This document shows, one piece after another, positions 39,745 to 62,875 of a stretch of 64,000 bases of DNA. The position numbers were made by a program, and so were the translations under genes. A model generated the notes under the pieces. The model was not told the DNA's origin. It saw nothing but the letters and a program-made list of their open reading frames with translations, and ran no database searches. The stretch is from an uncultured virus (IMG/VR IMGVR_UViG_3300044644_001243). Its lineage: Duplodnaviria > Heunggongvirae > Uroviricota > Caudoviricetes. The first letter of the stretch is position 1. Each line of letters begins with the position of its first letter. Location of the stretch: positions 62,001 to 126,000 of the IMG/VR virus record IMGVR_UViG_3300044644_001243; one strand, written 5' to 3'.

Positions 39745-39910
39745 AATTTAAAAGTTTTAATGATTAATAACTTTGACAAAGTTACACATTAAATTGACTA
39801 TTGCAACAAAAAATTAAAAATAATTCACTCAAAGTTATTAACAATAAAAAAAATTGAATTGTTAATAACTTTTGCTTGCATATTAAATTTATCCTTCCTA
39901 TATTTGTAGT

Positions 39911-39960
39911 GTACAATTAAGGTACGTGCCGTGGGAATGGAAGAGTAGACTCCAACCTGG
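39911..39960 (+). ncRNA. Repeated structured element copy 1 (putative sRNA)
   Basis: TATATTTG at 39899, then gtac..gtac GTG ccgt-GGGA-atgg AAGAGTAGACTCC. Confidence 0.6.
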
Positions 39961-40161
39961 GTTTTATTTTTTTAATATGCAAGTTTTTTTTTAAAAAAAG
40001 TTATTAACAATTTAGTGTTAATAACTTTGAAAAAAAAAAGTGAAAAAAGTTTTGGTTATTTAAAATTTATCCCTATCTTTGTATTGTTCAATTGAGGATA
40101 TGATATGTACTTCGGTTGGGCGTTAGTTCTTTTTTTATTTATTTTTTAATACTTTTTTGTT

Positions 40162-40485
40162 ATGAAAACATTGGTAAACATTTACGCACAAGTTGAGGAA
40201 AACTATGCTGCTCACACGTGGGATGGTCAAGGGGAATGTCCACAACATTGGAAAAAGAAAGGTGGTAAAATCTTTCAAGTCAACCTTAATGTTGATTACC
40301 TTATGTATGACGAGGAACGCTCAATAAACGCTTTCAAACGTCTGCTACAAGACGAGTCTAACGAGGGGTATCGGTATACGTATACCGAACACGAAATCGT
40401 GTGGCACGAACCTATCGTCTTGAATGACGACAAGTTCTTGGAATACGTGCACGCACAAGCACGTGACGTTGAAGTTGAGTACTAA
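40162..40485 (+). CDS. Hypothetical protein
   Basis: 107 aa; TTTG...TATCTTTG promoter upstream. Confidence 0.75.
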   Translation: MKTLVNIYAQVEENYAAHTWDGQGECPQHWKKKGGKIFQVNLNVDYLMYDEERSINAFKRLLQDESNEGYRYTYTEHEIVWHEPIVLNDDKFLEYVHAQARDVEVEY

Positions 40486-40615
40486 ATGTACAGAAATCTG
40501 TCCATAGGGTTATACCTTATGGACTTTTTTCGTTTATATTAATTTTTTTTTGGTTAGGGTATTGTGGGAATCAAAATTAATGTTATCTTTGTAGGGTAAT
40601 TCAAAATCGTTCTTT

Positions 40616-40834
40616 ATGTTACGTGTAGTTGTAAGACAAGTTGGAAATTGTCTATTAGTTAGGGAAGGTGAAAAATTCTTTGCCGAACAAGTTGGAAATG
40701 ACGTTAGGGCTGACATACCAAAAGTTAAGTATGAACGTCTAAAGATTGAATCTGACGACTTATTTGAGTATCTAATACCTATGCTTATTAGAAACGAAAT
40801 TAGTCGTCCTATCTTTGAAAAATTGGGGGTTTAA
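40616..40834 (+). CDS. Hypothetical protein
   Basis: 72 aa; own promoter and terminator. Confidence 0.65.
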   Translation: MLRVVVRQVGNCLLVREGEKFFAEQVGNDVRADIPKVKYERLKIESDDLFEYLIPMLIRNEISRPIFEKLGV

Positions 40835-40862
40835 AAATCCCCTTTTTTATTTAGTATAGTTC

Positions 40863-40935
40863 GTTCACGTATGGACGTGTCGGAGTCTACTCTCTCACTT
40901 TGCTTAGCGACTTGTCTCGACTATCAATCATTGAC
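40863..40935 (-). ncRNA. Repeated structured element copy 2
   Basis: TATCTTTG, then gtc... gagaGAGTAGACTCC gacacgtccatacgtgaac on the minus strand. Confidence 0.6.
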
Positions 40936-41072
40936 AAAACAAAGATAGATAATAGAAATGATATATGCAAACAATTATTAAAAATAATTTTATTTTTTTT
41001 TTCGTTAAGGTATTGTGGGAATGAAAAAAAGTATTATCTTTGTAATAAGTTATTCATTTAAATTTTTTCCTT

Positions 41073-41492
41073 ATGTCACACATTATTTCATCTTCGGCTC
41101 TTTTTTCAGTTATCAAGGCTGAAAAAAACAATAGTGGTTCTGATTTCACTATTAAGTCTATTGCTACGGGCAAAGACTACACGTATGCTATCTCTCGTTC
41201 TAAATTTAAGGGCAATTGGTACACGCATATTAGCGTTGAACAAGAGTACCAAAAATTCGTTCGTTTGGGGTCTTATTTCAAGGGTAAGATTTACCAAAAA
41301 GGGCAAGTGGTTAACTCGCCATCGGCAACAGCAATTTGTTGGGTGCTTGAAAGGGTTGAACAAAGCAAGTTCGACTTGTTGGATGAGAAGGTTCAAGTTA
41401 TGCATACGGGCAATTGCATACGTTGTGGACGCACGTTAACGGACGCACAATCCATCGAACGTGGGTTAGGTCCGACTTGTGCAAGTCTTTAA
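41073..41492 (+). CDS. DUF6011-like zinc-finger protein
   Basis: CIRCGRTLTDAQSIERGLGPTC. Confidence 0.8.
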   Translation: MSHIISSSALFSVIKAEKNNSGSDFTIKSIATGKDYTYAISRSKFKGNWYTHISVEQEYQKFVRLGSYFKGKIYQKGQVVNSPSATAICWVLERVEQSKFDLLDEKVQVMHTGNCIRCGRTLTDAQSIERGLGPTCASL

Positions 41493-41549
41493 CCGACTGA
41501 AAAGGGTTCATTAAATGAACTCTTTTTTTTATTGGCATACGTTAAAAAA

Positions 41550-41616
41550 GTATAGACGTGTCGGAGTCTAGTCTTTTGCTTTGGTTAGCAACTTGTCTCG
41601 ATTATCAATCATTGAC
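41550..41616 (-). ncRNA. Repeated structured element copy 3
   Basis: GATATTTG, then gtc... aaaGACTAGACTCC gacacgtctatac on the minus strand; near-identical to copy 2. Confidence 0.6.
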
Positions 41617-41952
41617 AATACAAATATCGTAATTAGATTTTAGATATGCAAGAAAAAAGTGAATTATTTTTAAATTATTTTTTGCTCTTATTTTAATTCG
41701 TTTTAAGACGTTTTAAAGTTGTTTTGGTATTATGTATTGGTTTAGTATTTAAAGTTTATTACAAGCAACAATACAAGCAAAAAAAGAATAAGAATAGTAT
41801 AAAGATTAATGTTATAAATAAGATTAGATAGGAATAAAAAAAAATAAAAAAAGATTAAAAAATGTTTGGTTATTTAAAAATTATGTTTATCTTTGTATCG
41901 TCCAAATGAGGGACAAAAGTTCTTTTTCTTACTTATTTTTTTTCTTTTTGTT

Positions 41953-42213
41953 ATGGAAGCAAATTGTTTTCACGGAACTGATACGTATGGACGTTCAGTT
42001 CAAGTTGGTATACGTCAAGATGGCGTTGCATTCTTCAGAACATATCGTTATAACGGCTATGGTATGGGAATGACCAAATGGGAAATGTTGAACGATTACG
42101 TTCACCAACCATACAAAAGTTCGTCTGCCGTTTATGGCGAAAAGACTCACATCAAGTGGGGCTTTAACGAACTCACTGGGTATACCAACCCAAGAATGAG
42201 ACTACCAAAGTAG
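41953..42213 (+). CDS. Hypothetical protein
   Basis: Start revised to MEANCFHG, downstream of the TATCTTTG promoter. Confidence 0.7.
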   Translation: MEANCFHGTDTYGRSVQVGIRQDGVAFFRTYRYNGYGMGMTKWEMLNDYVHQPYKSSSAVYGEKTHIKWGFNELTGYTNPRMRLPK

Positions 42214-42368
42214 TCTCATTTTTTTTTGTCTTATAATTTACTTATTGTAAGTATTATTATTCAAACATTATATTTTTTATTTGATAACAACTAATTGATT
42301 AAATTAGGGGGTGTGGTGGCAACCAATGTACAGAAATATGTACATAGGTCGCACCTACCATTTAGTTA

Positions 42369-42665
42369 TTAATTTACATCAATTAAATTTCCGTCCCATT
42401 CAACATCATTCAGAAACCATTTACCTTTGGTTTGATTTATTTTTACGTTAGGTAAACCATTTAACCTTTCTTTTGTTGTTGCCGTTTCATACCCACAATT
42501 AGTAATTGATAAGGTTCTTTCGGGGTCGTTGTATTGATAAGCGATTGCGTTGCCAAATAGTTTTAGTATTGTTACGTTAGGCAAAACTTCTACACTTGTG
42601 TTACCATTTTTAAAAGTTTCAGCATTTAAAAACTTTTCGATTGCTTTTTCAGTAATTGTTCTCAT
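42369..42665 (-). CDS. Hypothetical protein
   Basis: 98 aa; TTKERLN motif. Confidence 0.75.
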   Translation of the reverse strand: MRTITEKAIEKFLNAETFKNGNTSVEVLPNVTILKLFGNAIAYQYNDPERTLSITNCGYETATTKERLNGLPNVKINQTKGKWFLNDVEWDGNLIDVN

Positions 42666-42748
42666 TGTGTTTATGTTTATTTGTTTATGTAAAGATAGTA
42701 AATATAAATGGTACTACCAAACGATAGTACCATTTATTTTAATTTATT

Positions 42749-43132
42749 TTATACGTGTAGTGAATATGCTATTATCATATAAACACTATCTTCGACTTCA
42801 TCTAAATTTAGATTTTCACCTATATAATATTCTTTACCTTTCCATTTTATACATTTGTGGTCGTCCATCATTAGTTCAACATAGTGGTCTGATTCATTTT
42901 CATCAACTTCAATACCATAAGTTTCGATAAACGAATTAACTTCACTATCTTTGACTAAATCATAGTCCAATGTATATTGATTGATATACTCAAAACAATC
43001 TTCAATAGTGTTGATTGGTGCGATTCTAAATTTATCGTCATTAGCGATTAAATTAACTTTGTCAATCAATTCTTGTTTAGAATTTAATGTTGCAAGTTCT
43101 TTGTTTTTCTTTGTGTCGATTAAAGTATACAT
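42749..43132 (-). CDS. Hypothetical protein
   Basis: 127 aa with own promoter. Confidence 0.7.
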   Translation of the reverse strand: MYTLIDTKKNKELATLNSKQELIDKVNLIANDDKFRIAPINTIEDCFEYINQYTLDYDLVKDSEVNSFIETYGIEVDENESDHYVELMMDDHKCIKWKGKEYYIGENLNLDEVEDSVYMIIAYSLHV

Positions 43133-43194
43133 AGTATTAATTATTTGTTTCCGTAAAGATAGTGAATAGTTTTGACTTATGCAAGTTTATTTGT

Positions 43195-43548
43195 TTATAT
43201 TTCGTTATCATTATCTACCAAACATTTGTCCATTAATTCAATTAAATTAATTCTATCCTCTATTGATAAATCCCACATTTTAATTGAATGTTTTGTAAAT
43301 TTTCCGTCTGCCGTTACTACTTCAATATCGTAGTAATTACCAACTTTAAGAACTTTTAGTGGGTGTACATCAAATACGTTGCCCGTTTCTTTATCTCTAA
43401 TTTCTAGGTAATTATCGGGTGTGTCATTTTCTAAATCTTTTTCATCAAAGATAACAAATTCTTTTTGTTGATATAACATTTCCTCGAATGTCATTTGGAT
43501 ATGTGTTTTTAAAACATCTATATCTCTTTTTAAAGCACTTATTCTCAT
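43195..43548 (-). CDS. Hypothetical protein (paralog of the next ORF)
   Basis: IFDEKDLENDTPDNYLEIRDKETGNVFDVHPLKV. Confidence 0.8.
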   Translation of the reverse strand: MRISALKRDIDVLKTHIQMTFEEMLYQQKEFVIFDEKDLENDTPDNYLEIRDKETGNVFDVHPLKVLKVGNYYDIEVVTADGKFTKHSIKMWDLSIEDRINLIELMDKCLVDNDNEI

Positions 43549-43626
43549 TTTAGTTTATTTTAATTGTTTATTTATACAACAAAGATATGGATAAGTTTTC
43601 ACTTATCCAAATCTTTTTATAGTTTT

Positions 43627-43950
43627 TTACAAACTATTTTCCATTAATTCTATTAGGGTAATTTTGTCTTGTGTGCTTGATAAATCTTGCAACTTAATCA
43701 AGTGTCTTACAAAACTTCCGTCTGCTTCAACTACAAGTATTCCATTTTGGGTTACTTTTAGTGGGTGGACATCAAACACGTTTCCCGTAATATCATTACG
43801 CATTTCAAGGTAATCATCGGGTGTGTCGTGTTCTAAATCACATTCATCAAAGATTACTATTTCTTCTTGTTTCTCCAACAACTCATTAAAGTAGTGGTAA
43901 ACTTGTTTTTCTAATTGTTCTAAATCTTTGTTTAAGTTTTTGCTTGACAT
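43627..43950 (-). CDS. Hypothetical protein (paralog of the previous ORF)
   Basis: IFDECDLEHDTPDDYLEMRNDITGNVFDVHPLKV; start revised to MSSK. Confidence 0.8.
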   Translation of the reverse strand: MSSKNLNKDLEQLEKQVYHYFNELLEKQEEIVIFDECDLEHDTPDDYLEMRNDITGNVFDVHPLKVTQNGILVVEADGSFVRHLIKLQDLSSTQDKITLIELMENSL

Positions 43951-44010
43951 AATATAAGTTTTAAATTGTTTGTTTAACAAAGATAAGCATAATGTTTTGA
44001 TTATGCAAAT

Positions 44011-44250
44011 TTATTTTGCACAATCTTTACATAAATCTACATCATCACCAAATACCATTTCATCACGTGTAAACCCACCACCACAATTTTGACAACAAAA
44101 TGTAGGTTCTTCATCCAACCATTCAACTACTCTTTTGACTACATCAACTAAATCACTTTCATCGTCAAATTCTGCGTGTTCATTATTGTCTGCGTGTTGC
44201 TCAATAATGATTTTAAATACTCTCTCTAAATTTTCTAATGTGCATTCCAT
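44011..44250 (-). CDS. Zn-finger hypothetical protein
   Basis: CQNC...CKDC; start revised to MECT. Confidence 0.7.
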   Translation of the reverse strand: MECTLENLERVFKIIIEQHADNNEHAEFDDESDLVDVVKRVVEWLDEEPTFCCQNCGGGFTRDEMVFGDDVDLCKDCAK

Positions 44251-44389
44251 AATATATTGTTTTAAAGTTATACTACAAATATAAGCATTGAATCTTGTTG
44301 CCACAACATACTATAATTAGCATTTAATTTTTTTTAAATTATTTTCATTTTTGTGTTGGATATATCAAAATTATTTCTATCTTTGTTAT

Positions 44390-44436
44390 GTCAGTAAGAC
44401 GTGCTACGAGAGTAGAAGAGTAGACTCCGTTGCGTG
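44390..44436 (+). ncRNA. Repeated structured element copy 4
   Basis: TATCTTTG at 44378; gtc..gac GTG ctac-GAGA-gtag AAGAGTAGACTCC. Confidence 0.6.
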
Positions 44437-44587
44437 TATATGTTTCGTGTGTGCGTTACTGCATAAAAAAAGTGGCAACCATTCGGCAACCACTTCCTCG
44501 TTATAATCAAAACACTAAACAAACACAATTTAGTTTTTTGCGTTGATTGAAACCCCATAATAGATTTCAATCAACATTATTTCTTTA

Positions 44588-44734
44588 TCATACATAATCC
44601 TCTTGCATTAACTTGTTAATATAATTCTTTTTATGTTTATCTTTGCGTTGAAACGCTTTTTTAGACTTGTGAACACTACTCTTTAATGCTTGTTGCATTT
44701 CGTGCTGGGTTAAGGTTATTTCTTTAAATTTCAT
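44588..44734 (-). CDS. Small basic hypothetical protein, 48 aa
   Basis: Read manually: MKFKEITLTQHEMQQALKSSVHKSKKAFQRKDKHKK... Confidence 0.6.
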   Translation of the reverse strand: MKFKEITLTQHEMQQALKSSVHKSKKAFQRKDKHKKNYINKLMQEDYV

Positions 44735-44819
44735 TTCTTTTATCTAAATAATTACACACTAATTTGATTACTGCTAATCCTCCTAATAAGATTCCTAAAT
44801 AAACGATTTTGCCTAACAT
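44724..44819 (-). CDS. Small membrane peptide, 31 aa
   Basis: MLGKIVYLGILLGGLAVIKLVCNYLDKRNEI directly after a promoter cassette. Confidence 0.5.
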   Translation of the reverse strand: MLGKIVYLGILLGGLAVIKLVCNYLDKRNEI

Positions 44820-44896
44820 AACTTTTTGTTTTAATTTGTTTGTGAAACAAAGATAAGGATAATCTTTCGATTATCCAAATCTTTTTTTAAAATGTT

Positions 44897-45517
44897 TTAG
44901 TTATTTTCTAATAACTTTACAACCCCATTAGGTAATTCGTTATCAGTACCATCTAAAATCAACACTACATCAGTTCTCATAAAGTCTTTGATATAAACAT
45001 AGTTGCCATTAACTCTGCCAAACTTTTGTGCGTTTTGTGGTGTACTTTCCCCATTGTCGCCATCTTGGTATTTCTCTCTGACAAATACTCTATTATCAAC
45101 AACAACTATTTCACCAACATCACCAACTTCCTCACCACTATATTCTACCACTCCATTAAGGACATAACCATTCGGTGCTAGAATTTTGTGAATAAGATAA
45201 ACTAACCATTCAGTATAGTTATAAAACTTCTCACCACAATCCCACTCAATACCCATTCGGTCATCGCTAGGTGTCCATTGATTCCAAAGACTTGGTTGAG
45301 TGCTTGGTGGCTCATTAAAATCTACTACATTGTCTTCGTGGTCTTGTCCAAAACTTCCACCACCAAATACGTAAAACTCACCTTGTACTCCAAACACTTC
45401 ATCAGTGTTTCTTTCCATTCTGCGTGTTTCGTTGAACAATTTTAAGTATTGTTCCATCTTTGGACTTAACTCCTTGTTAAGTTCAAATCTACCACTAAAA
45501 TCAGTTGTGTAACCCAT
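44897..45517 (-). CDS. Hypothetical protein
   Basis: 206 aa; MGYTTDF...QPSLWNQW...EKFYNYTEWL. Confidence 0.8.
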   Translation of the reverse strand: MGYTTDFSGRFELNKELSPKMEQYLKLFNETRRMERNTDEVFGVQGEFYVFGGGSFGQDHEDNVVDFNEPPSTQPSLWNQWTPSDDRMGIEWDCGEKFYNYTEWLVYLIHKILAPNGYVLNGVVEYSGEEVGDVGEIVVVDNRVFVREKYQDGDNGESTPQNAQKFGRVNGNYVYIKDFMRTDVVLILDGTDNELPNGVVKLLENN

Positions 45518-45655
45518 TGTAATTTGTTTTATTGATTAATACCTTACAAAGATAAACATTCTTTTTTAATTTCCTACTATATTGTGAAAAATAAATAAAT
45601 TATTTTTTTTTACTTTTTTTGTTGCACAAGTCAATATTATTACTATCTTTGTTAT

Positions 45656-45717
45656 GTACGATTAAGGTACGTGCTGCGAGAGTAGAAGAGTAGACTCCAA
45701 CACGTCCATACGTGAAC
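45656..45717 (+). ncRNA. Repeated structured element copy 5
   Basis: TATCTTTG at 45644; ctgc-GAGA-gtag AAGAGTAGACTCC aacacgt-ccat-acgtgaac. Confidence 0.6.
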
Positions 45718-45958
45718 AAAATAAAAATGAAAAAACAAAGTTGTATAAATAGGAATTGGGAATAGGTAAACCCTATTCCCAACAACACCTCTAACGAAAC
45801 ATTCCTCTAAGTCATTTACAATATGAAAGGTTTGTCAAAGCATAATTAGTGATAAACAATACGGAAAGGGGAACTAATTATGCAATGATGTATCGTTACC
45901 AAGTCTACGAGGTTCAGCAGAGTATTTTCCTCTCATATAAACCCTTTCCTACTATATT

Positions 45959-46186
45959 TTAATTTTCTTCTAATTCTTCTATATCTTTAAATTCTTCTTT
46001 CATCTTGTTTTCAGTTTGTTTCTTGTCTACAAACAACACAACAGCCGATAAACACCCAAAGGTTAGAAAACTCCATAAGTTTATCATTAATGCGTCATTG
46101 GTTTCTGAATAGAAAAATATACCTACTAGTGAAACAATTTGACCTACTATACCTAATACTGCCAAAATAAATAATTCTTTTTTCAT
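45959..46186 (-). CDS. Small membrane protein
   Basis: 75 aa with two hydrophobic segments. Confidence 0.7.
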   Translation of the reverse strand: MKKELFILAVLGIVGQIVSLVGIFFYSETNDALMINLWSFLTFGCLSAVVLFVDKKQTENKMKEEFKDIEELEEN

Positions 46187-46264
46187 AATGTTTGTTTTTT
46201 AATTGATTTCTTTTATCAAAGGTAAGGAATTGTTTTTACAATTCCAAACCTTTTTTAACTTTTT

Positions 46265-46459
46265 TTAATTTTTTTCTTGTGTTGGTTTACACCCTACATA
46301 TAAGCAAGGGATAAACGATACCATACCAACTATCATCATAGTATTGGCAACCAACTCTTCGGTTTGTGTTCTGCCACCCATTCCTACCATTAATCCGATA
46401 AGGATAACTATCAAAGTGGAAACGAACCACCAACTCCAATTGTACTGCGAAATTTTCAT
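46265..46459 (-). CDS. Small membrane protein
   Basis: 64 aa with two hydrophobic segments. Confidence 0.7.
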   Translation of the reverse strand: MKISQYNWSWWFVSTLIVILIGLMVGMGGRTQTEELVANTMMIVGMVSFIPCLYVGCKPTQEKN

Positions 46460-46534
46460 CTTGTGTATGTTTTAATGATTATGAAACAAAGATAAGCATA
46501 ATCTTTTGATTATGCAAACCTTTTTTAACTTTTT

Positions 46535-46879: not shown

Positions 46880-47013
46880 AATGTTTTGTTTTAATGATTA
46901 TAGTACAAATATAAACATTCTTTTTTAATTGTGCAACATTTTATATAAAATAAAAATAAAATTATTTTTACTTTTTTCTTGCATAATTGATTTATAATTC
47001 CGATATTTGTTAT

Positions 47014-47085
47014 GTCAATGATTCAGACGTGCTACGAGAGTAGAAGAGTAGACTCCAACACGTCCATACGTGAACAACGGCAACC
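47014..47085 (+). ncRNA. Repeated structured element copy 6
   Basis: GATATTTG at 47002; full consensus plus downstream GGCAACC. Confidence 0.6.
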
Positions 47086-47116
47086 AATAAAAAAAGGGTG
47101 TAATACCCTTTAATTT

Positions 47117-47491: not shown

Positions 47492-47538
47492 ACTATTTTA
47501 TTTTAATTGATTTATAAAACAAAGATAAGCATAAGTTT

Positions 47539-47700
47539 TCACTTATGCAAATCTTTTTCAAAGTTTTTTACAAAAAAATCAGTAATATTATTTAGTTTTA
47601 TTCTAACTTCTTCTGCGTCTTGTCCATTGTCTTCTAATTGGTCTGCGATGTCATAAAGACTAATCAATTCTTCCCATACTTTTTTAATTTCCTTTTCCAT
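47539..47700 (-). CDS. Hypothetical protein
   Basis: Start revised to MEKEIK. Confidence 0.65.
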   Translation of the reverse strand: MEKEIKKVWEELISLYDIADQLEDNGQDAEEVRIKLNNITDFFVKNFEKDLHK

Positions 47701-47983: not shown

Positions 47984-48059
47984 AACTTATATTGTTTTAA
48001 TTAGTATATAACAAAGATAAGGAATACTTTTCAATATTCCAAATCTTTTGTAATTATTT

Positions 48060-48719: not shown

Positions 48720-48858
48720 TGTGTTTTATTTTAATTGATTAATACCCTACAAAGATAAACATTATTTTTAATTCTGCAACTATTTTGTAATAAAATAAAA
48801 ATAAAATTATTTTCACTTTTTGCTTGCATATGTCAAATATTATTGCAATCTTTGTATT

Positions 48859-48927
48859 GTACAATTAAGGTACGTGCTGCGAGAGTAGAAGAGTAGACTC
48901 CGACACGTCTATACGTGAACGGCAACC
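48859..48927 (+). ncRNA. Repeated structured element copy 7
   Basis: AATCTTTG at 48847; full consensus plus GGCAACC. Confidence 0.6.
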
Positions 48928-49748: not shown

Positions 49749-49849
49749 TGCTTGTTAATTTAGATTGTTTTGCAAATATAAGAAAAACTTTTTAAATAAA
49801 AAAATTTATTTTACTTGTTTTTTAAAAATATTATTACAATCTTTGTATT

Positions 49850-49906
49850 GTCGGTGGACGTGCTACAAGAGTAGAAGAGTAGACTCCGTCACGCCCATAT
49901 GCGAAC
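49850..49906 (+). ncRNA. Repeated structured element copy 8
   Basis: AATCTTTG at 49838; ctac-AAGA-gtag AAGAGTAGACTCC. Confidence 0.6.
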
Positions 49907-49989
49907 GTTATGAAATTATTTAGAATGAATATAAATAACAAAATTATTTTGTTATGTGAAAAATAATGATTACTTTTGTCCCTTGAATA

Positions 49990-52896: not shown

Positions 52897-52967
52897 TTGT
52901 TTTTGTTTTATTTGTTTCAGTAAAGATAAGGATAAGTTTTCACTTATCCAAATCTTTTTTAATTATT

Positions 52968-53688: not shown

Positions 53689-53789
53689 AACTTTTAATTT
53701 AATTTGTTTCAACAAAGATAATAAATCTTTTTTAAATAAAAAAACTTTTTTTGTTAGGATATTAATTTTTTTTATCTTACATTTGTAAG

Positions 53790-53855
53790 GTCAATCAGTT
53801 AGACGTGCCGTGGGAATGGAAGACTAGACTCCAACACGTCCATACATTGGCAACC
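53790..53855 (+). ncRNA. Repeated structured element copy 9
   Basis: TACATTTG at 53778; ccgt-GGGA-atgg AAGACTAGACTCC; GGCAACC. Confidence 0.6.
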
Positions 53856-56499: not shown

Positions 56500-56577
56500 A
56501 AGTTCTATGTTTTATTTGTTATAACAAAGATAGTAAAAAGAAATGACACTACCAAATGATAGTGCCATTATTTTAAA

Positions 56578-57417
56578 TTATTTTTCTACTTTTTCTAATT
56601 CCTTTTGTATTGTTGCAACCAACTCAAAGTTTTCATTTGCCAACGCAATCTCTTTAAATCGTTCCAACACATTCCTTGCATAGCCACAATCCTCGGTTGG
56701 CATATAATCTCTATCGTATGCAATTTCAATCATTGAATTTGTAAACTTTGATAATTCCTCGTCTTCATCTACATCACAAAAATCATCACCTAAATAATAG
56801 TCTTCACCACCTTGAATATTAAGAGCCATTTCGTATGCTTCACGTGTGCCACCTTCGGGTACATTTTCTTCAATTTCAACTCCACCTACCAAAGTATAAG
56901 TTCCTACATTGTAACCAAAGTCTTCATCAGCATATTCAACTTCAATACGTGCTTCGGGATATTTTTCAGATAGTTTTAAAAATAAGTTGAAAGGTGTACT
57001 CCACGCAGTATTAAAACTTACACTCTCATTATCATCACTCCAATACACATCACTTGCGTTCCACTTTGTACCCCAATTACTAATTTGCCACCCATACCAA
57101 TCAGCATAACCAAATCGTTCAATAAAATCATCGTGCATTTCTTTTGTAATACCTCTCGATACTCCAAAACGTACTTCACTTTCCGTTAATTCACCTTTGG
57201 TAATACGTTCCTCTTGTATATCGTATTCCTCTTGTGTAATAATGCGACAAGGACTTGTTGTACCTACCAATTCAGTTGGTATTGGTGCAATTTGATTAAA
57301 ATCAAATTCTTTGTCTTCACCATTACTATATGGTGTTCCTTTTACTTCTTCTCTAATCTTTGCTAATAAAGTTTCATCAGCAATGATTCTTACGTTGTTT
57401 GTAATCCAGTTTGGCAT
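56578..57417 (-). CDS. DUF1281/YubB ferredoxin-like domain protein
   Basis: MPNW...DWYGWQISNWGTKWNA...FNTAWSTP. Confidence 0.8.
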   Translation of the reverse strand: MPNWITNNVRIIADETLLAKIREEVKGTPYSNGEDKEFDFNQIAPIPTELVGTTSPCRIITQEEYDIQEERITKGELTESEVRFGVSRGITKEMHDDFIERFGYADWYGWQISNWGTKWNASDVYWSDDNESVSFNTAWSTPFNLFLKLSEKYPEARIEVEYADEDFGYNVGTYTLVGGVEIEENVPEGGTREAYEMALNIQGGEDYYLGDDFCDVDEDEELSKFTNSMIEIAYDRDYMPTEDCGYARNVLERFKEIALANENFELVATIQKELEKVEK

Positions 57418-57480
57418 AACTATTTATTTTTATTGATTAATACACTACAAATATAATTACTATTTTTGTTAATTCCAAAT

Positions 57481-57693
57481 TTATAACATAGAAATTATAA
57501 CTTTTATAAAAGATTTTTTAAAACCTCTTTCTTTCAATTCTCTCCATACGTGGTCGTCATCTAATAACTCACACTCTGCTTGGATTCTACCATTAAAGTA
57601 AATGTCAATTACGTAACCATTCGGATTGTAATATACTTTTACTTTTGTTAACCCTTTTTCAATTTGTCCTAAATAAACTTTTTCTTCACTCAT
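57481..57693 (-). CDS. Hypothetical protein
   Basis: 70 aa after a promoter cassette. Confidence 0.65.
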   Translation of the reverse strand: MSEEKVYLGQIEKGLTKVKVYYNPNGYVIDIYFNGRIQAECELLDDDHVWRELKERGFKKSFIKVIISML

Positions 57694-57764
57694 AATGTTT
57701 TGTTTTAATGTTTATCAAAGATAAGCATAAGTTTTCACTTATGCAAATCTTTTTTAAAAATGTT

Positions 57765-58142
57765 TTATATTATTTTATATAAACCAAAATCAACACTACC
57801 AATTTGTTCATACTTTTGATTATCCACTACTTCACCATTTAACAACCAATTTGGTTGCACCCTTGGATTGTATTTAATTCTATGACAATAGGTATCAAGT
57901 TGTAAAAACTTATTTGTGTTAATCACAATTGATTCACACAATACCCACGCACACACAACTTTTTCACCCCCATTATAAATCTTTTCAGCGACTTTCTTAT
58001 GGTTGCCTAACTGACAATTCACCATCACCAATTGAGTGCTTGTAGGGTCATAATATTCAACTTCACCATTAGGGTATTGAACTTTCCATTTCATAAAGTT
58101 CTTACCTCTACCTAAATTGAATCTAACTTTAATTCGTTTCAT
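57765..58142 (-). CDS. Hypothetical protein
   Basis: 125 aa; VRFNLGRGKNFMKW...VCAWV...YNPR. Confidence 0.75.
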   Translation of the reverse strand: MKRIKVRFNLGRGKNFMKWKVQYPNGEVEYYDPTSTQLVMVNCQLGNHKKVAEKIYNGGEKVVCAWVLCESIVINTNKFLQLDTYCHRIKYNPRVQPNWLLNGEVVDNQKYEQIGSVDFGLYKII

Positions 58143-58276
58143 AATCGTTTGTTTAATTGTTCTCTACAAAGATAGTAATTATTTCCATTCCCACAACACT
58201 TTTATTAAAAAAAAATAAAATTATTTTTTTTGCTATTTTACTTGCATATGTCAATTATTATTGCAATCTTTGTATT

Positions 58277-58320
58277 GTCAAGTTAGACGTGCCGTGGGAA
58301 TGGAAGAGTAGACTCCAACG
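58277..58320 (+). ncRNA. Repeated structured element copy 10
   Basis: AATCTTTG at 58265; ccgt-GGGA-atgg AAGAGTAGACTCC. Confidence 0.6.
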
Positions 58321-58356
58321 TGCCTTTTATTTTTTTACACGCACAAAAAAAGTGGG

Positions 58357-58683
58357 TCACCCCACTTTGCGATAGTTTAATGGATAACCCCTATCAGTCC
58401 AACAAACGTTACCATAGGTAAATTCGTTTATATCTGCGTTCTCAACCATTGTAAGATAATATTGGTATGCTATATCCATAGACTCTTTTTTAGTCGTTTG
58501 TGGGGGATAAAACGCAAACATATTTTCTTTTGGGTGTCCATAAAATACTATGTAGATTTTATTCCCTCTGCTACCATATTGGTGTGCGTCTGCAATACTC
58601 TTAAACTTTGTAAAAGATACTGCTTTGTTATTCACTATTAACCCTAATAGTTCTAACTTGTTTCTTACTTCACTTGGTGTCAT
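58357..58683 (-). CDS. Hypothetical protein
   Basis: 108 aa. Confidence 0.7.
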   Translation of the reverse strand: MTPSEVRNKLELLGLIVNNKAVSFTKFKSIADAHQYGSRGNKIYIVFYGHPKENMFAFYPPQTTKKESMDIAYQYYLTMVENADINEFTYGNVCWTDRGYPLNYRKVG

Positions 58684-58686
58684 AAT

Positions 58687-58950
58687 CTAAATTCCTTTTT
58701 CAATTACAAAATAACCATATTTGTATGGTTGTGTACCATAGTCAATGTCGCCCATATCAACGATGTCTTCTCCGTCCTCGGTTTCGTGTACCGATACAAC
58801 TTGATACTCTTCCGTATCAAATTCTTTCACCCTATCAATTTCTTCGGGGTGTAAAAAAAGATAGTCACCATATTCTACACTATCCTCTTCTGCCACTACC
58901 AATCCACCACCATACTTTGCGAAAAATTCTGTCTTTGTCATTGTTGCCAT
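58687..58950 (-). CDS. Acidic hypothetical protein
   Basis: Start revised to MATM. Confidence 0.7.
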   Translation of the reverse strand: MATMTKTEFFAKYGGGLVVAEEDSVEYGDYLFLHPEEIDRVKEFDTEEYQVVSVHETEDGEDIVDMGDIDYGTQPYKYGYFVIEKGI

Positions 58951-59025
58951 AACTCTTATTGTTTTTGTTTGTGAAACAAAGATAAGCATAAGTTTTCACT
59001 TATGCAAATCTTTTTTTAATTTATT

Positions 59026-59334
59026 TTACCAACGAATATAAACATAATAACTCGGACTGCAAATAACAACTTTGAATCCTTTTTCTTCAAGGTAAGGTTT
59101 CATTTTGGTTTCAACCAATCTTTGTAGATTGCTATCATCAAATAATTCACCAACTACTTTGTTGTGTGTATCATCATTTTGATAACTACCAATGGACAAT
59201 TCATTTTTTTTCCATTTTTCTGCCACGTTAACCATTCTTGGAAAAAGTACTTCATTGTATACTCTGTCAAACTTTGGTCTATCAATATCTTTAACTTCAG
59301 ATATTAAACTTTTTAATTTTGCGATGTCATTCAT
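59026..59334 (-). CDS. Hypothetical protein
   Basis: Start revised to MNDIA. Confidence 0.7.
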   Translation of the reverse strand: MNDIAKLKSLISEVKDIDRPKFDRVYNEVLFPRMVNVAEKWKKNELSIGSYQNDDTHNKVVGELFDDSNLQRLVETKMKPYLEEKGFKVVICSPSYYVYIRW

Positions 59335-59415
59335 AATATTAGTTTTAATTTGTTTGTGAAACAAAGATAAGGATAATATTTCGATTATCCAAATCTTTTG
59401 TTATTTTATTTTAAA

Positions 59416-59832
59416 TTATTTTGGTGCAACACAATTATACAATAAGTTCTCCACAATCAATTCCCACGTTGCCGTTTTGTCTTCCTCTGCTTCACTATCG
59501 TAGTATTTTAATACTTCGTTAATCTCTGCAATACTCGGATTCATTTTTAAATCCATAGCAACCCTTACAACGTCTTCAACACTAATTTGTTTTGTTAAGA
59601 TTTCTTCTTCGTCAAACTCACTATTATTTTGGCAACCCTCATACCATAAATCGGGACAATCAGATAAATCCATTACTGACTTGCAACACGCACATTCAAT
59701 TTCAGAATCCATTCTATCGTGTAATAATACACTACCACAATTTCCACACGTTACAATATTAATACTTGCTACTGCATTAACTCTGTTTTGTAACTCAATT
59801 TGTTTTTCTGCTAATTCTCTTTTAGTTTTCAT
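59416..59832 (-). CDS. Zn-finger hypothetical protein
   Basis: CGNCG...CACC...CPDL. Confidence 0.75.
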   Translation of the reverse strand: MKTKRELAEKQIELQNRVNAVASINIVTCGNCGSVLLHDRMDSEIECACCKSVMDLSDCPDLWYEGCQNNSEFDEEEILTKQISVEDVVRVAMDLKMNPSIAEINEVLKYYDSEAEEDKTATWELIVENLLYNCVAPK

Positions 59833-59915
59833 AATGTTTGTTTTTGATTACAATACAAATATAGTAAAAATAAAATAACCTACCAAATATTTGATAGGTT
59901 ATTTTTAAATTATTT

Positions 59916-60353
59916 TTAATTTCTTCTTCTTGGAAAAAACCCTTGGTCGGGGTCACCTAAACTACAAGTCTCCAAATCTTCATACGTACCTTTGAATGAA
60001 GCTGAAACTAATTTTAAAGGGTATTTAAGTTTTAATATTTGTTCATCGTAACAACCAATGTCAATACCTTTACTTCTATTGTAATCAGTATGTTCATCAA
60101 TTTGTTTCATCAATGGATATTCACCCTCAAATTTCAAATCCTCTGCATTGTTCCAAAATGCTAATAGTTCATACATATCGTATTTAGGTTCACCACTAAT
60201 TTCTTTTGTTCCTAGTTCACCATAATCTTGATAGTAATCTTTGATAAACCCACCACCAAATTCTTTTGGTATTAAGAATTTAAAAGGTGTACCATAAGCA
60301 ACATTTTCAGTGTTCGTTAATTCATCTGCTTTGTTCCAACTAAAACTTCCCAT
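59916..60353 (-). CDS. Hypothetical protein
   Basis: 145 aa; MGSFSW...YELLAFWN...YPLKLV...DPDQG. Confidence 0.75.
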   Translation of the reverse strand: MGSFSWNKADELTNTENVAYGTPFKFLIPKEFGGGFIKDYYQDYGELGTKEISGEPKYDMYELLAFWNNAEDLKFEGEYPLMKQIDEHTDYNRSKGIDIGCYDEQILKLKYPLKLVSASFKGTYEDLETCSLGDPDQGFFPRRRN

Positions 60354-60429
60354 AATCTTTATTTTTAATGTTTAACAAATATAAGAATAATAATCCAATC
60401 TACCAAATATAAATTGGATTATTATTAAA

Positions 60430-60624
60430 TTATTTGTTGTACTTATCTTTTAAGAAATTTTCCATACATTCGTATTCACCTTTGGTGTCAACATTGAATT
60501 TGCTTTTGTCATACTCATCATATAAACTTGGCAAATCATCCCATTGCTCGTCATAACAAGCGTCAGCAAATTCCTTGTCATAAAATTTGATAAGGTTGCT
60601 AAATAAATACATACTATAATCCAT
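60430..60624 (-). CDS. Hypothetical protein
   Basis: Start revised to MDYSM. Confidence 0.65.
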   Translation of the reverse strand: MDYSMYLFSNLIKFYDKEFADACYDEQWDDLPSLYDEYDKSKFNVDTKGEYECMENFLKDKYNK

Positions 60625-60714
60625 AGGTTCTAAAGTTTTAATTGGTTTGTTTAACAAATATAAGAATAAAGATTGGATAAACAATAACATTCATCCAATC
60701 TTTTTAATTTTATT

Positions 60715-61554
60715 TTAAACTAATTTACCTTGGTTACTCAAAATTCGTTTCTCTTCCAACAAATCTTTTGTATTACTTTCAGTACTACTCATTATTAGTT
60801 GCCTTAACATTTGGTCTTCCATACCAACTTCCTTTAAGATATACTGCATAGTTTCTCCGTCAACATCAATTACTTTTAACTTCGCAATAATGTCTTTTAC
60901 AATATTATGGTTATCATCTGAATAACATAAAAAAGTTGGTACACTTGGTAACTCAAAGTCTTCTTTAAACATATCTCTAAAATAGCCACCATTTTGTTGG
61001 TTATTTGCTTTTTCATCCAACCATTCAACTTTAACACAATTATCGTTACTTTCGTGTTCCGTTGTATAGTCTTCGGTTACTCTCGCTTTAGCACCACCAT
61101 TAACACTATAATATTGTCTTGTTTCTTTCCACTCAACAATACTATCTTTTGGTATTAATACCTTTGGTTCTTCCTTGGGTAATGTTGCAACATATTCTGC
61201 TACACTTCTAGGTTTAAATTTATCCTCTATTTCTTCTTTTGGTTCTTCGAATAAACCATACCAATTACACTCTATTGGTTCATTAATGGTTAAATCTAAT
61301 GCAATGTTAATATCAGTAACACTTCTTTGTAGTATCTCTACATTATCATACCCAATACTTTCTTCCAATTTAACTTGATTAGTAAATAGTATCTCGTGAC
61401 TATCAACATTAGTACGTTTAACACATTCAATACGTTTTTCAACTTCTGCTATCTTATCAGACAAATCTGTCAACGCCATATCAACTTCATCACCTATTTG
61501 ATACAAGTCCCAACGTTTTAAAGTTTCTACTAAATTGTTAAATTCATTTCTCAT
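60715..61554 (-). CDS. Hypothetical protein
   Basis: About 280 aa; start revised to MRNEF. Confidence 0.75.
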   Translation of the reverse strand: MRNEFNNLVETLKRWDLYQIGDEVDMALTDLSDKIAEVEKRIECVKRTNVDSHEILFTNQVKLEESIGYDNVEILQRSVTDINIALDLTINEPIECNWYGLFEEPKEEIEDKFKPRSVAEYVATLPKEEPKVLIPKDSIVEWKETRQYYSVNGGAKARVTEDYTTEHESNDNCVKVEWLDEKANNQQNGGYFRDMFKEDFELPSVPTFLCYSDDNHNIVKDIIAKLKVIDVDGETMQYILKEVGMEDQMLRQLIMSSTESNTKDLLEEKRILSNQGKLV

Positions 61555-61592
61555 AATATTTGTTTTTAATTGTTTCAACAAAGATAAATAAA

Positions 61593-61862
61593 CTATTTCA
61601 ATTTTCCAAATTTATTTTCAAATTTCTTACTTACCCAACTATAATTCCCACTTGCAAAAATTTCCATTATCTCATTATCAACATAATCACCCTCGGCAAT
61701 TAGATTCATAACCCTATTATGTTTTTTAGCAAATAATTTTTTATCTTTGTGGTCGCCCATTGGATAAAAATAAATGTGTGTACTTGTTTCTAATACCCTC
61801 TCGTATTTTATATCGTCAGTACTACGTAAACAACTTTTAACTATTTTCATAACATTAATCAT
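61593..61862 (-). CDS. Hypothetical protein
   Basis: 89 aa. Confidence 0.65.
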   Translation of the reverse strand: MINVMKIVKSCLRSTDDIKYERVLETSTHIYFYPMGDHKDKKLFAKKHNRVMNLIAEGDYVDNEIMEIFASGNYSWVSKKFENKFGKLK

Positions 61863-62085
61863 TAATATGTTCCCAACCCTCTAACTCTTCCAATTCCATA
61901 CCCATAGGTCTTAACCCATATGGTTCTGCGTCCAAATAGTAATCAAAGGTATAACCCAATGGTTCTATCTCACTCAATATCCTATCTAACTCAAAATAGG
62001 TGTTTCCACTATCCTCATCAAATGATTCCAATATTGCTTGTACTTCGTTTGGTATCAACTCTGGTGTTTCAAATAAATCTTTCAT
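61855..62085 (-). CDS. Hypothetical protein
   Basis: 76 aa; GYTFDYYLDAEPYGL. Confidence 0.7.
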   Translation of the reverse strand: MKDLFETPELIPNEVQAILESFDEDSGNTYFELDRILSEIEPLGYTFDYYLDAEPYGLRPMGMELEELEGWEHIND

Positions 62086-62145
62086 AACTTTTATTGTTTT
62101 GTTTAATCAAAGATAAGCATAAGTTTTCACTTATGCAAATCTTTT

Positions 62146-62685
62146 TTAATAATTCGTAACTAATTTTAATTGATAATCATAACTGAATTTTCCGTTGTTA
62201 TGTTCATCACAACATTTAGCACAAGCATAAGTCTTTCTAATCACTTTGTGTTTTGGTGTTTCTTTACCACAACTCTCACATAACAAAGTATATTTTGATT
62301 TAGGTAAATTAACACTATCACTACTAAAACATCTTTTAGCGTCACAACCAATTTGTTTTGCAATATGTTGCCAATTGTACCCATGACCTCTTCCGTCCCT
62401 TACACCATACACGTGAACACAAAATGCGTGTGCCAATTCGTGCAACATAGTGTCAGTAATCTTTGTGTCTATTTTATCTAAATTTTCATTACATAGTGGC
62501 ATAGATAAACCAATAGTTTTTTTACCATAACTACAGCAACCAAATCTACGTTTTGCACTATCAAACTTAAACGTATAACCTAATTGTTCACCACTCAATG
62601 TATAAACCCCATGGTACGTGTTAAACGTGAATTGTTTTGTCATTAATGTTTCTGCCATTAATCTTACGTCATTTAAATTTTTCAT
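62146..62685 (-). CDS. SprT-like zinc metalloprotease
   Basis: AKRRFGCC, TMLHELAH, GHG..W, C-terminal CxxC pairs. Confidence 0.85.
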   Translation of the reverse strand: MKNLNDVRLMAETLMTKQFTFNTYHGVYTLSGEQLGYTFKFDSAKRRFGCCSYGKKTIGLSMPLCNENLDKIDTKITDTMLHELAHAFCVHVYGVRDGRGHGYNWQHIAKQIGCDAKRCFSSDSVNLPKSKYTLLCESCGKETPKHKVIRKTYACAKCCDEHNNGKFSYDYQLKLVTNY

Positions 62686-62818
62686 TGTGTTTTGTTTTAT
62701 TGTTCCCTACAAAGATAAACATTATTTTTAATTCTGCAACTATTTTGTGAGAAAATAATTATTTTTTTTTATGCAACAAAAGTTTGTTTTTTAAATATAT
62801 TATCCCTACCTTTGTTTT

Positions 62819-62875
62819 GTTGGTGGTGATAACCGAAACGGGTCGAGGGAAATCTTGAAAGAGTAGACTCCAACC
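62819..62875 (+). ncRNA. Repeated structured element copy 11 (divergent)
   Basis: TACCTTTG at 62807; cgagg-GAAA-tcttg AAAGAGTAGACTCC. Confidence 0.55.

What the first reader, a model, noticed from the sequence alone, without database searches (positions are those of the whole stretch)
39899..62875. Dispersed family of 11 promoter-driven hairpin elements with an invariant AGA(G/C)TAGACTCC core: candidate multicopy phage small-RNA system
Seen: core positions are 39943, 40882(-), 41563(-), 44418, 45688, 47046, 48891, 49877, 53822, 58306 and 62861. Every copy follows a Bacteroidota-type -7 box (nAnnTTTG) and starts with GT after a fixed 4-nt spacer. Most begin with a short 5' hairpin of variable loop (gtc..gac or gtac..gtac). 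In the nine + strand copies a second hairpin with covarying stems follows, mostly with GNRA loops (ctac-GAGA-gtag, ctgc-GAGA-gtag, ccgt-GGGA-atgg, cgagg-GAAA-tcttg). Then come the core and often cacgt-c(c/t)at-acgtg. GACGTG can alternatively pair with CACGTC to close a three-way junction. The elements sit in intergenic gaps, mostly back-to-back with a gene promoter and antisense to local coding, and they flip where the genes flip (40.9 and 41.6 kb). A + strand TTGCATAT at the window end suggests a twelfth copy. Inference: fixed start spacing, G-U pairs and GNRA loops favour an early, highly expressed RNA of roughly 45-80 nt. Possible roles are a decoy for host RNA-binding defence proteins (as with pseudo-ToxI or RNA anti-CRISPRs), a base-pairing sRNA, or an R-loop primer. 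I do not recognise it as a known family.
Basis: partly seen in the sequence, partly recalled or inferred. Interest (0 to 1): 0.9.

Follow-up and report, generated by a model that had tools for sequence, protein, structure and literature searches.

The report
Multicopy promoter-driven phage small RNA family
A giant uncultured lake phage carries thirteen separately promoted copies of a short folded RNA gene with an unchanging 9-12 letter stretch, a family that also occurs in many other uncultured phages, matches no catalogued RNA, and has no known job.

Summary
The 12-mer AGASTAGACTCC occurs 11 times in the window (0 in 100 shuffles) and 13 times in the 128-kb phage contig.

Every copy lies 26-42 nt behind a Bacteroidota-type promoter (nAnnTTTG, 4 nt, GT).

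Pattern scans found the family in many uncultured phage contigs. Jumbo phages of 200-350 kb hold 2-13 copies. Ten smaller phage records hold one copy each, some behind a different promoter-like box.

Two hairpins are kept by compensatory changes: 91% of cells paired against 69% in shuffles, in two separately collected sets. The hairpin next to the core has 58 G-U pairs and no A-C pairs, so the folding strand is the promoter's sense strand.

There is no Rfam match, tRNA or literature hit.

Tested and not supported:
- a host copy or full-length target of the core in 301 Bacteroidota genomes;
- rRNA or boxA mimicry;
- an obligatory neighbouring protein;
- a covarying closing helix.

Expression could not be tested because no RNA run was listed. 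Single-sequence folds are no more stable than shuffles.

Best reading: an undescribed family of promoter-proximal structured phage RNAs, amplified here for dosage. A cis-acting transcription element is the main rival. Function is unknown.

The parts
39876..39963 (+). Copy 1: promoter (39876-39906), inferred start 39911, P1, P2, core 39942-39953, tail; T-run follows
40872..40970 (-). Copy 2: promoter (40940-40970), inferred start 40935, core 40882-40893, third hairpin present
41553..41651 (-). Copy 3: promoter (41621-41651), inferred start 41616, core 41563-41574 (C variant)
44356..44438 (+). Copy 4: promoter (44356-44385), inferred start 44390, core 44417-44428
45622..45708 (+). Copy 5: promoter (45622-45651), inferred start 45656, core 45687-45698
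46979..47066 (+). Copy 6: promoter (46979-47009), inferred start 47014, core 47045-47056; bidirectional terminator at 47093-47111
48824..48911 (+). Copy 7: promoter (48824-48854), inferred start 48859, core 48890-48901
49815..49897 (+). Copy 8: promoter (49815-49845), inferred start 49850, core 49876-49887
53778..53842 (+). Copy 9: -7 box only (tacatttg), inferred start 53790, core 53821-53832 (C variant)
58242..58326 (+). Copy 10: promoter (58242-58272), inferred start 58277, core 58305-58316; T-run follows
62784..62881 (+). Copy 11: promoter (62784-62814), inferred start 62819, core 62860-62871, family-typical tail AACCTACC plus T-run
63993..64000 (+). Start of the promoter of copy 12, cut by the window end (core at window-equivalent 64066; copy 13 at 65579)

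Best explanation
Each element is a small independent transcription unit of an undescribed phage RNA family. Host RNA polymerase starts at a canonical Bacteroidota promoter (inferred). The first 50-65 nt of the transcript form a variable 5' hairpin (P1), a conserved GGG or GTG linker and a second hairpin (P2) whose sequence changes freely while its pairing is kept (shown by covariation). P2 is followed by an unpaired, nearly invariant stretch (AGAGUAGACUCC; most constant part GUAGACUCC) and a conserved tail (RWCCUACC or RWCACGYC).

I infer that the invariant stretch, displayed beside P2, is a recognition surface for a conserved partner, most likely a protein. I also infer that the RNA acts in trans and by amount. 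That would explain why this jumbo phage keeps 13 strongly promoted copies in its early-gene region while smaller phages keep one. What it binds is not known.
For: Real repeat: 11 of 11 exact cores in the window against 0 in shuffles; 13 in the contig.

Promoter: nAnnTTTG, 4 nt, GT in 13 of 13 copies. In a scan that did not ask for a promoter, 59 of 62 unique copies have a -7-type or TGATAATA box 18-110 nt upstream on the sense strand. The controls give 23 of 62 downstream and 18 of 62 on the opposite strand.

Structure:
- On 77 distinct sequences, 91.1% of cells pair against 69.3% in shuffles (0 of 500 shuffles reach it). Slid controls give 25-48%.
- On 60 distinct sequences from the promoter-blind scan, 91.0% pair against 69.5%.
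- P2 is 100% and 99.3% paired, and 3 of its 4 pairs show changes on both sides.

Strand: P2 has 39 and 19 G-U or U-G cells and 0 A-C or C-A cells.

Spread: the first viral-contig scan gave 106 stretches and the second 69. Copy counts were 13, 8, 7 and 2 in four jumbo records. Each of 10 smaller phage records had 1 copy.

Not a known family: no Rfam match and no tRNA or tmRNA.

No conserved downstream gene: cross-group protein comparison found no gene family that always follows the element. That argues against a gene-specific leader.
Against: - No transcript evidence: all 24 listed runs are DNA.
- Single-sequence folds are no more stable than shuffles (z from -0.39 to +0.31 for 6 of 6 tested).
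- The 3' ends are not uniform. Five of 13 copies have a T-run at 54-69 nt, three reach bidirectional terminators at about 100-116 nt, and five have no clear sense-strand terminator. This fits a 5' leader as well as a discrete small RNA.
- In the single-copy phages the element points the same way as the following run of small ORFs. That fits a cis-acting leader.
- No partner was identified. The one protein shared near the element across groups is present in only 4 of 10 records.
- The 100% core conservation in my alignments is by construction, because both scans demanded the exact core. A model search in related genomes found 5 of 20 copies with 1-2 core changes.
Confidence: 0.45

Rival explanations
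1. It is a cis-acting promoter-proximal RNA element, a regulated terminator or antiterminator. It would work like a riboswitch or attenuator, or like the put or nut sites of lambdoid phages. The nascent element, alone or with a factor bound to the core, would decide whether the polymerase stops at the T-run or terminator just downstream or reads on. In single-copy phages it would read on into early genes. In this jumbo phage it would read on into antisense transcription of the converging gene.
For: - The element always begins at or near the transcript's 5' end.
- 19 of 63 promoter-blind copies and 5 of 13 local copies have a T-run right after the tail.
- The 3' strand of P1 overlaps the stretch that can pair with the tail, which gives two exclusive folds. 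In one subgroup the tail helix reaches -11 to -15 kcal/mol.
- In 3 of 6 minimum-energy folds a helix closes around P2 and the core.
- Single-copy elements are co-oriented with downstream ORF runs.
Against: - In this phage 12 of 13 copies face non-coding or antisense sequence, so there is no operon to switch on.
- The tail helix shows no covariation beyond chance (102 of 500 permutations as good; 57% paired).
- T-run copies do not pair their tails better than the others (mean -6.4 against -6.6 kcal/mol).
- The core does not resemble the boxA motif seen in rRNA leaders of 14 sampled genomes.
Confidence: 0.25
2. It is a DNA-level portable regulatory cassette. The repeated unit would be a bidirectional promoter plus terminator module that spreads by recombination among early genes, like the PeSL cassettes of T4-type phages. 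The core would be a DNA site for a phage protein, and the short RNA would be a by-product.
For: - The phage has a T4-type terminase and a region of small unknown ORFs.
- The whole 200-bp module is conserved between copies: gene start, gene promoter, AT spacer, then element promoter.
- The same region holds compact terminator-in-promoter hairpins.
- Early genes are shared at up to 86% amino-acid identity with other element-bearing phages.
- PeSLs are described as composite terminator/promoter motifs that mediate shuffling (PMC4122927, abstract read).
Against: - A recombination cassette does not explain covarying stems with strand-specific G-U pairs.
- It does not explain a 12-nt core held constant while the flanks diverge.
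- It does not explain why the element is kept behind a different promoter-like box in other phage groups.
- The distance from the core to either promoter varies (26-46 nt), which is unlike a promoter element.
Confidence: 0.12
3. It is an RNA decoy that mimics a host RNA, such as a CRISPR repeat (RNA anti-CRISPR), a type III antitoxin repeat, or an rRNA or tRNA segment. It would soak up the protein that normally binds that RNA.
For: - Multicopy, strongly promoted and early-region placement suits a stoichiometric decoy.
- Racrs are solitary repeat units in phage genomes (PMC10651486; search listing and start of abstract only).
Against: - The exact core occurs in only 27 of 301 sampled Bacteroidota genomes, 29 hits in all on both strands. 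It is never in an array; the one genome with 3 hits has them spread over 20 kb of one contig. The backwards control pattern hits at least as often by my reading of the table.
- A promoter-plus-core scan of 185,579 species' genomes gave 69 stretches. Nearly all are single hits in unrelated taxa, and multicopy hits occur only on short MAG contigs.
- The Flavobacterium rRNA operon has no match better than 9 of 12.
- The host is unknown, so a mimic of a rare host RNA is not excluded.
Confidence: 0.05
4. It is a replication primer or origin. A promoter-driven structured RNA next to AT-rich DNA would form a persistent R-loop that primes DNA synthesis.
For: - T/A-rich runs follow several copies.
- Single-copy elements sit near contig ends or at divergence points.
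Against: - Thirteen origins within 26 kb is implausible.
- No skew switch is centred on the cluster.
- Nothing ties the core to a replication protein.
- Contig ends of permuted genomes are arbitrary.
Confidence: 0.04

Closest known systems
FopS/GibS multicopy small RNAs of Bacteroides thetaiotaomicron (PMC11697453, passages read)
   Same: Both are multicopy (14 FopS paralogues) and Bacteroidota-type promoter-driven. Both have a conserved single-stranded stretch plus hairpin. A dosage argument has been made for the multiple loci.
   Different: FopS is chromosomal. Its seed is at the extreme 5' end, followed by a terminator hairpin. The paper says its consensus was deposited in Rfam. The present elements match no Rfam model, are phage-borne, place the invariant stretch after two hairpins, and have no identified target.
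RNA anti-CRISPRs (Racrs, solitary repeat units; PMC10651486, listing and abstract start only)
   Same: Both are small, promoter-driven, non-coding phage RNAs that can be multicopy and act by binding host proteins.
   Different: Racrs copy the host's CRISPR repeat. Here the core was not found in any array among 301 Bacteroidota genomes, and it stays constant across phages with different promoter types.
PeSL promoter-early stem-loop cassettes of T4-type phages (PMC4122927 abstract read; PMC2839356 listing only)
   Same: Both are repeated promoter-plus-stem-loop modules between small variable early genes of a T4-superfamily phage. Both are plausibly spread by recombination.
   Different: PeSLs are a terminator hairpin joined to an early promoter serving the next gene. 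The present element is its own transcription unit pointing away from that gene, with an invariant unpaired core. True PeSL-like hairpins also exist in this window as a separate feature.
Promoter-proximal antitermination RNAs of lambdoid phages (put of HK022; nut boxA/boxB). Recalled, no paper read here.
   Same: Both consist of two stem-loops or a hairpin plus a conserved single-stranded box, placed directly behind early promoters in more than one copy per genome.
   Different: There is no similarity between the core and the boxA motif seen in Bacteroidota rRNA leaders. Most copies here face no operon. Action on the polymerase is untested.

Membership tests
Any Rfam 15 family | Covariance-model match at or near the gathering score | tested here: not met
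   No hits at gathering over the window. At E<=5 over 39.8-64 kb there are only two sub-threshold chance hits, MicX and PyrG leader. Across 20 loci of other subgroups there is one hit at E 0.86.
tRNA / tmRNA | Cloverleaf or tmRNA recognised by ARAGORN | tested here: not met
   0 genes in the window.
FopS/GibS small RNAs | Match to the Rfam-deposited consensus; 5' single-stranded seed followed by a terminator hairpin | tested here: not met
   No Rfam match. The invariant stretch lies 26-46 nt from the start, behind two hairpins.
FopS/GibS small RNAs | Binding by RbpB and repression of SusC-like mRNAs | not testable with these tools
   Needs CLIP or gel shifts; the host is unknown.
RNA anti-CRISPR (Racr) | Sequence mimics a CRISPR repeat of the host | tested here: inconclusive
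   No array-like multiple hits of the core in 301 sampled Bacteroidota genomes. The true host is unknown.
Type III antitoxin mimic (pseudo-ToxI) | Tandem short repeats that fold into a toxin-binding pseudoknot | tested here: not met
   Copies are dispersed, 681-4,555 nt apart in the window, each with its own promoter. No tandem-repeat program was run.
PeSL cassette | Composite terminator hairpin plus early promoter flanking variable ORFs | tested here: inconclusive
   The module has a promoter pair and lies by terminators. The element itself is a separate unit with covarying RNA stems and an unpaired core. Recombination junctions were not analysed.
nut/boxA antitermination site | A boxA like that of the host's rRNA leader next to a hairpin | tested here: not met
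   rRNA leaders and spacers of the sampled genomes show a GTTCTTTGA-type box. The best match of the core in any leader is 8 of 12.
put-like polymerase-binding RNA | Nascent two-stem RNA renders the transcribing polymerase terminator-resistant in cis | not testable with these tools
   Needs in vitro transcription. Only the promoter-proximal position is shown.
Single-strand hairpin promoter for a virion RNA polymerase (N4 type; recalled) | Short stem with a fixed small loop at a fixed distance from the start | tested here: not met
   P2 loops range from 3 to about 14 nt and stems from 4 to 7 bp. The distance to both flanking promoters varies.

The most novel reading that the evidence does not exclude
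The RNA is an RNA-based counter-defence. It would be a compact aptamer or protein sponge, made in large amounts from many early promoters, that captures a bacterial immune component. That component could be a defence protein or a nucleotide second messenger. Phage protein sponges do this job; here RNA would do it. The invariant bulge would be the binding pocket, and copy number would scale with the load to be absorbed.
Probability: 0.12. Interest if true: 0.9.

Novelty: new variant of a known kind. Interest (0 to 1): 0.66.

Why it matters
Phage-encoded small RNAs are few, and almost none are known from phages of Bacteroidota. This family occurs in many uncultured phage contigs. Its sequence core does not drift while everything around it does. 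It reaches 13 promoter-driven copies in one genome.

That pattern points to a conserved molecular partner during early infection. Finding the partner would open a new piece of phage-host biology, whether it proves to be transcription control, host takeover or counter-defence.

The family is also a practical marker. It flags phage fragments that were binned into bacterial MAGs, and it marks early-gene regions of uncultured jumbo phages.

Tried and rejected
- Sequencing runs: no RNA holder was listed among the 24 runs, all lake or freshwater DNA. Expression stays untested.
- Megablast of 25 kb against cultured phages: no match. TerL tblastn gave at most 30.7% identity, so there is no cultured relative to borrow data from.
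I reached genomes through loci instead.
- rRNA mimicry or complementarity: the Flavobacterium rrn operon gives a best match of 9 of 12. rRNA leaders and spacers of 14 sampled genomes show no core-like motif. The shared GTAGAC in two Flavobacterium leaders is a 6-mer and is not general.
- boxA/nut idea: rejected.
- Full-length host target or copy: 29 hits in 27 of 301 genomes, no more than the control.
- Targets within the phage: no complement within 2 mismatches of the 12-mer. The complementary 8-mer occurs once outside the copies, and 7-mers occur at chance frequency.
- Partner protein: Pfam on 52 early-region ORFs gave only DUFs, Kyano_Gp96, SprT-like and DUF932. The Kyano_Gp96-like protein near the element in three phage groups is found in only 4 of 10 element-bearing records.
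The tail's best partner shifts between the 5' end, the P1 3' strand and the P2 3' strand.
- Thermodynamic stability: z-scores near 0.
- Literature string search for the core: 31 papers; none of the 10 listed is relevant (primers or unrelated viral RNAs).
- Resemblances I considered only by eye and dropped: tRNA T-arm, 16S 3' end, sarcin-ricin loop, single-subunit polymerase promoters, RNase III sites. None survived comparison across family members.

Full report
WHAT THE WINDOW IS

The window is bases 62,001-126,000 of a 128,170-bp uncultured virus record, rated 38% complete. It encodes a major head protein, portal, large terminase, thymidylate synthase and a large ATP-dependent protease. The terminase is at most 30.7% identical to those of cultured phages. 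The nearest are a Microcystis phage, Flavobacterium 'immuto' phages and T4-like cyanophages. Megablast of 25 kb finds nothing among cultured phages. DNA runs that hold the stretch are lake and freshwater metagenomes.

From about 39 kb onward the window is a run of small ORFs, mostly on the - strand. Of the 52 I scanned against Pfam, 44 have no hit. Nearly every one has its own Bacteroidota-type promoter of the form TTG-N18-22-nAnnTTTG. Sigma-70-type consensus sites are not enriched (96 found, 111 expected). Terminator-like hairpins are enriched (35 found, 5.8 expected). I read this as the early, variable region of a distant T4-superfamily jumbo phage of a Bacteroidota host. That reading is an inference.

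AGASTAGACTCC occurs 11 times in the window and never in 100 shuffles. It occurs 13 times in the contig.

All 13 copies have nAnnTTTG, a 4-nt spacer and GT. Ten of the 11 in-window copies also have the -33 TTG at the right distance. A near-identical 206-kb record of the same phage has the same 13 copies and no more.

Upstream of most copies lies a conserved 200-bp module. It consists of the start codon of a - strand gene, that gene's own promoter, about 40 nt of A/T, and then the element's promoter pointing the other way. The constant feature is therefore 'back to back with a gene promoter'. Being antisense to the gene it runs towards follows from that. The exception is copy 39942, which faces + strand genes.

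IT IS A FAMILY FAR BEYOND THIS GENOME

A scan of viral contigs for the promoter-plus-core pattern gave 106 stretches. After removing duplicates and 9 loci that looked like chance hits, 84 unique copies remained.

The same pattern over one genome for each of 185,579 prokaryote species gave 69 stretches. Nearly all were single hits in unrelated taxa. Multicopy hits occurred only on short MAG contigs, which I take to be binned phage fragments.

A second viral scan asked only for core plus the common tail, with no promoter. It gave 69 stretches and 63 unique copies. Of the 62 with enough flank, 59 have a -7-type box or a TGATAATA box 18-110 nt upstream on the sense strand. The controls gave 23 of 62 downstream and 18 of 62 on the opposite strand.

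This second scan revealed further subgroups:
- one with a TTTA variant of the -7 box;
- one (phages of roughly 70-130 kb) with the -7 box about 70 nt upstream and more structured RNA on both sides;
- one (phages of roughly 46-64 kb) with a TGATAATAT-type box a few nt before the element and no 5' hairpin.

Ten of 10 records of the last two subgroups hold exactly one copy. Four of those records are at least 90% complete. There the element points the same way as the following run of small ORFs. Among jumbo records, the model found 13, 8, 7 and 2 copies.

STRUCTURE

I built a covariance model from 7 clean copies with two 4-bp helices and searched the loci of the first scan. That gave 109 matches, 77 of them distinct.
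- 91.1% of cells pair against 69.3% after shuffling partners (0 of 500 shuffles reach it). Sliding the partner by 1-3 columns gives 25-48%.
- P2, the hairpin next to the core, is paired in 100% of cells. Three of its four pairs change on both sides.
- P1 is paired in 83.6% of cells.

A second model built from that alignment, run on the promoter-blind set, gave 71 matches, 60 distinct, with 91.0% against 69.5% paired and P2 at 99.3%. Both alignments are fitted to the model, which favours the structure. The slid controls argue that the signal is nevertheless real.

P2 contains 39 and 19 G-U or U-G cells and no A-C or C-A cells in the two sets. The folding strand is therefore the one the upstream promoter reads. 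A structure on the gene-sense strand, or a symmetric DNA cruciform, is unlikely.

GNRA loops are a local habit of this genome, not a family feature.

They appear in 3 of 6 minimum-energy folds and are strong in one subgroup. However:
- only 57% of cells pair in a fixed register;
- a permutation test is not significant (102 of 500);
- the tail's best partner moves about.

Because the P1 3' strand is also the candidate partner of the tail, the two folds would exclude each other.

Single sequences are no more stable than shuffles (z from -0.39 to +0.31).

The core's 100% identity in my alignments is imposed by the scans. When the model was run on related genomes, 15 of 20 copies had the exact core and 5 had one or two changes. 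All 5 keep GAC and four keep ACTCC, and the changes are spread over positions 1-6 and 11.

WHAT IT IS NOT

- No Rfam family, and no tRNA or tmRNA.
- No literature hit for the core string: of 31 papers holding a term, the 10 listed are primers or unrelated viral RNAs.
- Not a copy of, or full-length complement to, a conserved host sequence. The core occurs in 27 of 301 sampled Bacteroidota genomes, 29 hits in all on both strands. It is never arrayed, and by my reading of the table the backwards control hits at least as often.
- Not related to the rRNA operon or its boxA.
- No complement in the phage contig itself.
- No obligatory neighbouring protein.

HOW IT MOST LIKELY WORKS

Shown:
- separate units each behind a promoter-like box;
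- two covarying hairpins on the sense strand;
- a nearly invariant unpaired stretch and tail;
- wide distribution in phages and none in host chromosomes searched;
- copy number from 1 to 13.

Inferred: host polymerase makes a short 5'-structured RNA early in infection, and the invariant stretch is a docking site for a conserved partner.

I favour a trans-acting, dosage-dependent RNA (0.45) for three reasons. Thirteen strong promoters facing non-coding or antisense DNA make sense mainly as a way to make much RNA. No conserved gene follows the element across groups. And the conserved part is the 5' 50-65 nt, whatever the 3' end is.

The main rival (0.25) is a cis-acting regulated terminator or antiterminator. 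It is supported by the strict promoter-proximal position, the T-runs, the two exclusive folds, and the co-orientation with ORF runs in single-copy phages.

A DNA-level portable promoter cassette of the PeSL kind (0.12) explains the spread of the module but not the RNA-type constraints. Host-RNA mimicry (0.05) and R-loop priming (0.04) have little support.

COMPARISON WITH KNOWN SYSTEMS

The element works most like the multicopy small RNA families of Bacteroides (FopS/GibS; PMC11697453, passages read). It is not a member of that family. It shares its genomic setting with T4-type PeSL cassettes (PMC4122927, abstract read), but it is a distinct unit. Real PeSL-like terminator-in-promoter hairpins occur separately in this window. 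Racrs (PMC10651486; listing and abstract start only) share the logic of a phage decoy RNA, but their defining repeat mimicry was not found here.

Earlier notes of this scan on other genomes (e1-5374883, e1-5942085, e1-5678966) describe what appears to be the same family and also leave the function open. They are unchecked AI notes. I could not compare sequences with them.

VERDICT

This is a real, undescribed and widespread phage RNA family, seen here at its highest copy number so far in my searches. The RNA reading is supported by comparative evidence. The proposed roles remain untested, and two of them (host-RNA decoy, full-length base-pairing) are weakened.

Noticed in passing
window 47520-47550, 57716-57746, 58977-59007, 62108-62138 (identical); variants at 44848-44878, 46217-46247, 46487-46517, 48012-48042, 52930-52949, 59362-59392; all - strand: Many - strand gene promoters carry an 8-bp palindrome with a GAAA-type loop between the -33 TTG and the -7 box (TTG-GCATAAGT-GAAA-ACTTATGC-TTATCTTTG). 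The arms change together between copies. The hairpin plus the T-rich -7 box also scores as an intrinsic terminator. One 31-nt unit may therefore end one gene and start the next, much like the PeSL terminator/promoter cassettes of T4-type phages.
   Followed up: partly
window 49916-49938; also after copy 13 (window-equivalent about 65.6 kb) and in L023, L024, L038, L055, L091, L112, L185, L186, L188, L189 and the TTTA-box subgroup (L205, L210 and others): An imperfect palindrome of about 23 bp (TTATTTAGAATGAWTATAAATAA type) recurs 15-35 nt downstream of the element in many phages, in place of the T-run. It could be an operator or an AT-rich hairpin. It is unexplained.
   Followed up: no
window 42369-42665 (-): A 98-aa protein (Pfam Kyano_Gp96, E 3.5e-10) has homologues about 1.5 kb downstream of the element in two other phage groups (39-47% identity). 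It is missing from 6 of 10 element-bearing records searched, two of which are complete jumbo genomes.
   Followed up: yes
window 43195-43950 (-) and related loci L274, L275, L279, L187, L188: Small early-region ORFs are shared between this jumbo phage, other jumbo phages and the roughly 130-kb phages at 50-86% amino-acid identity. The structural genes have no close relatives. This suggests an exchanged pool of early-gene cassettes.
   Followed up: partly
L118-L120, L179 (a 'Bacteroidales' MAG), L150-L151 (a 'Saccharibacteria' MAG), G276 contig 5: Short contigs of bacterial MAGs carry 2-4 copies of the element. They are probably phage fragments binned with bacterial genomes.
   Followed up: no
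L276, L277, L280, L281, L241 (the roughly 46-64 kb phage group): A GCTATACAC / GTGTATAGC motif flanks the single-copy element on one or both sides. A second TGATAATAT-type box lies about 90 nt downstream. Neither is explained.
   Followed up: no
L274, L275, L279 (the roughly 70-130 kb phage group): Here the element sits inside a longer non-coding stretch. About 65 nt lie between the -7 box and the GGG linker. A G-rich region downstream can form a 9-bp long-range helix. This may be a larger RNA of which the element is one domain.
   Followed up: no
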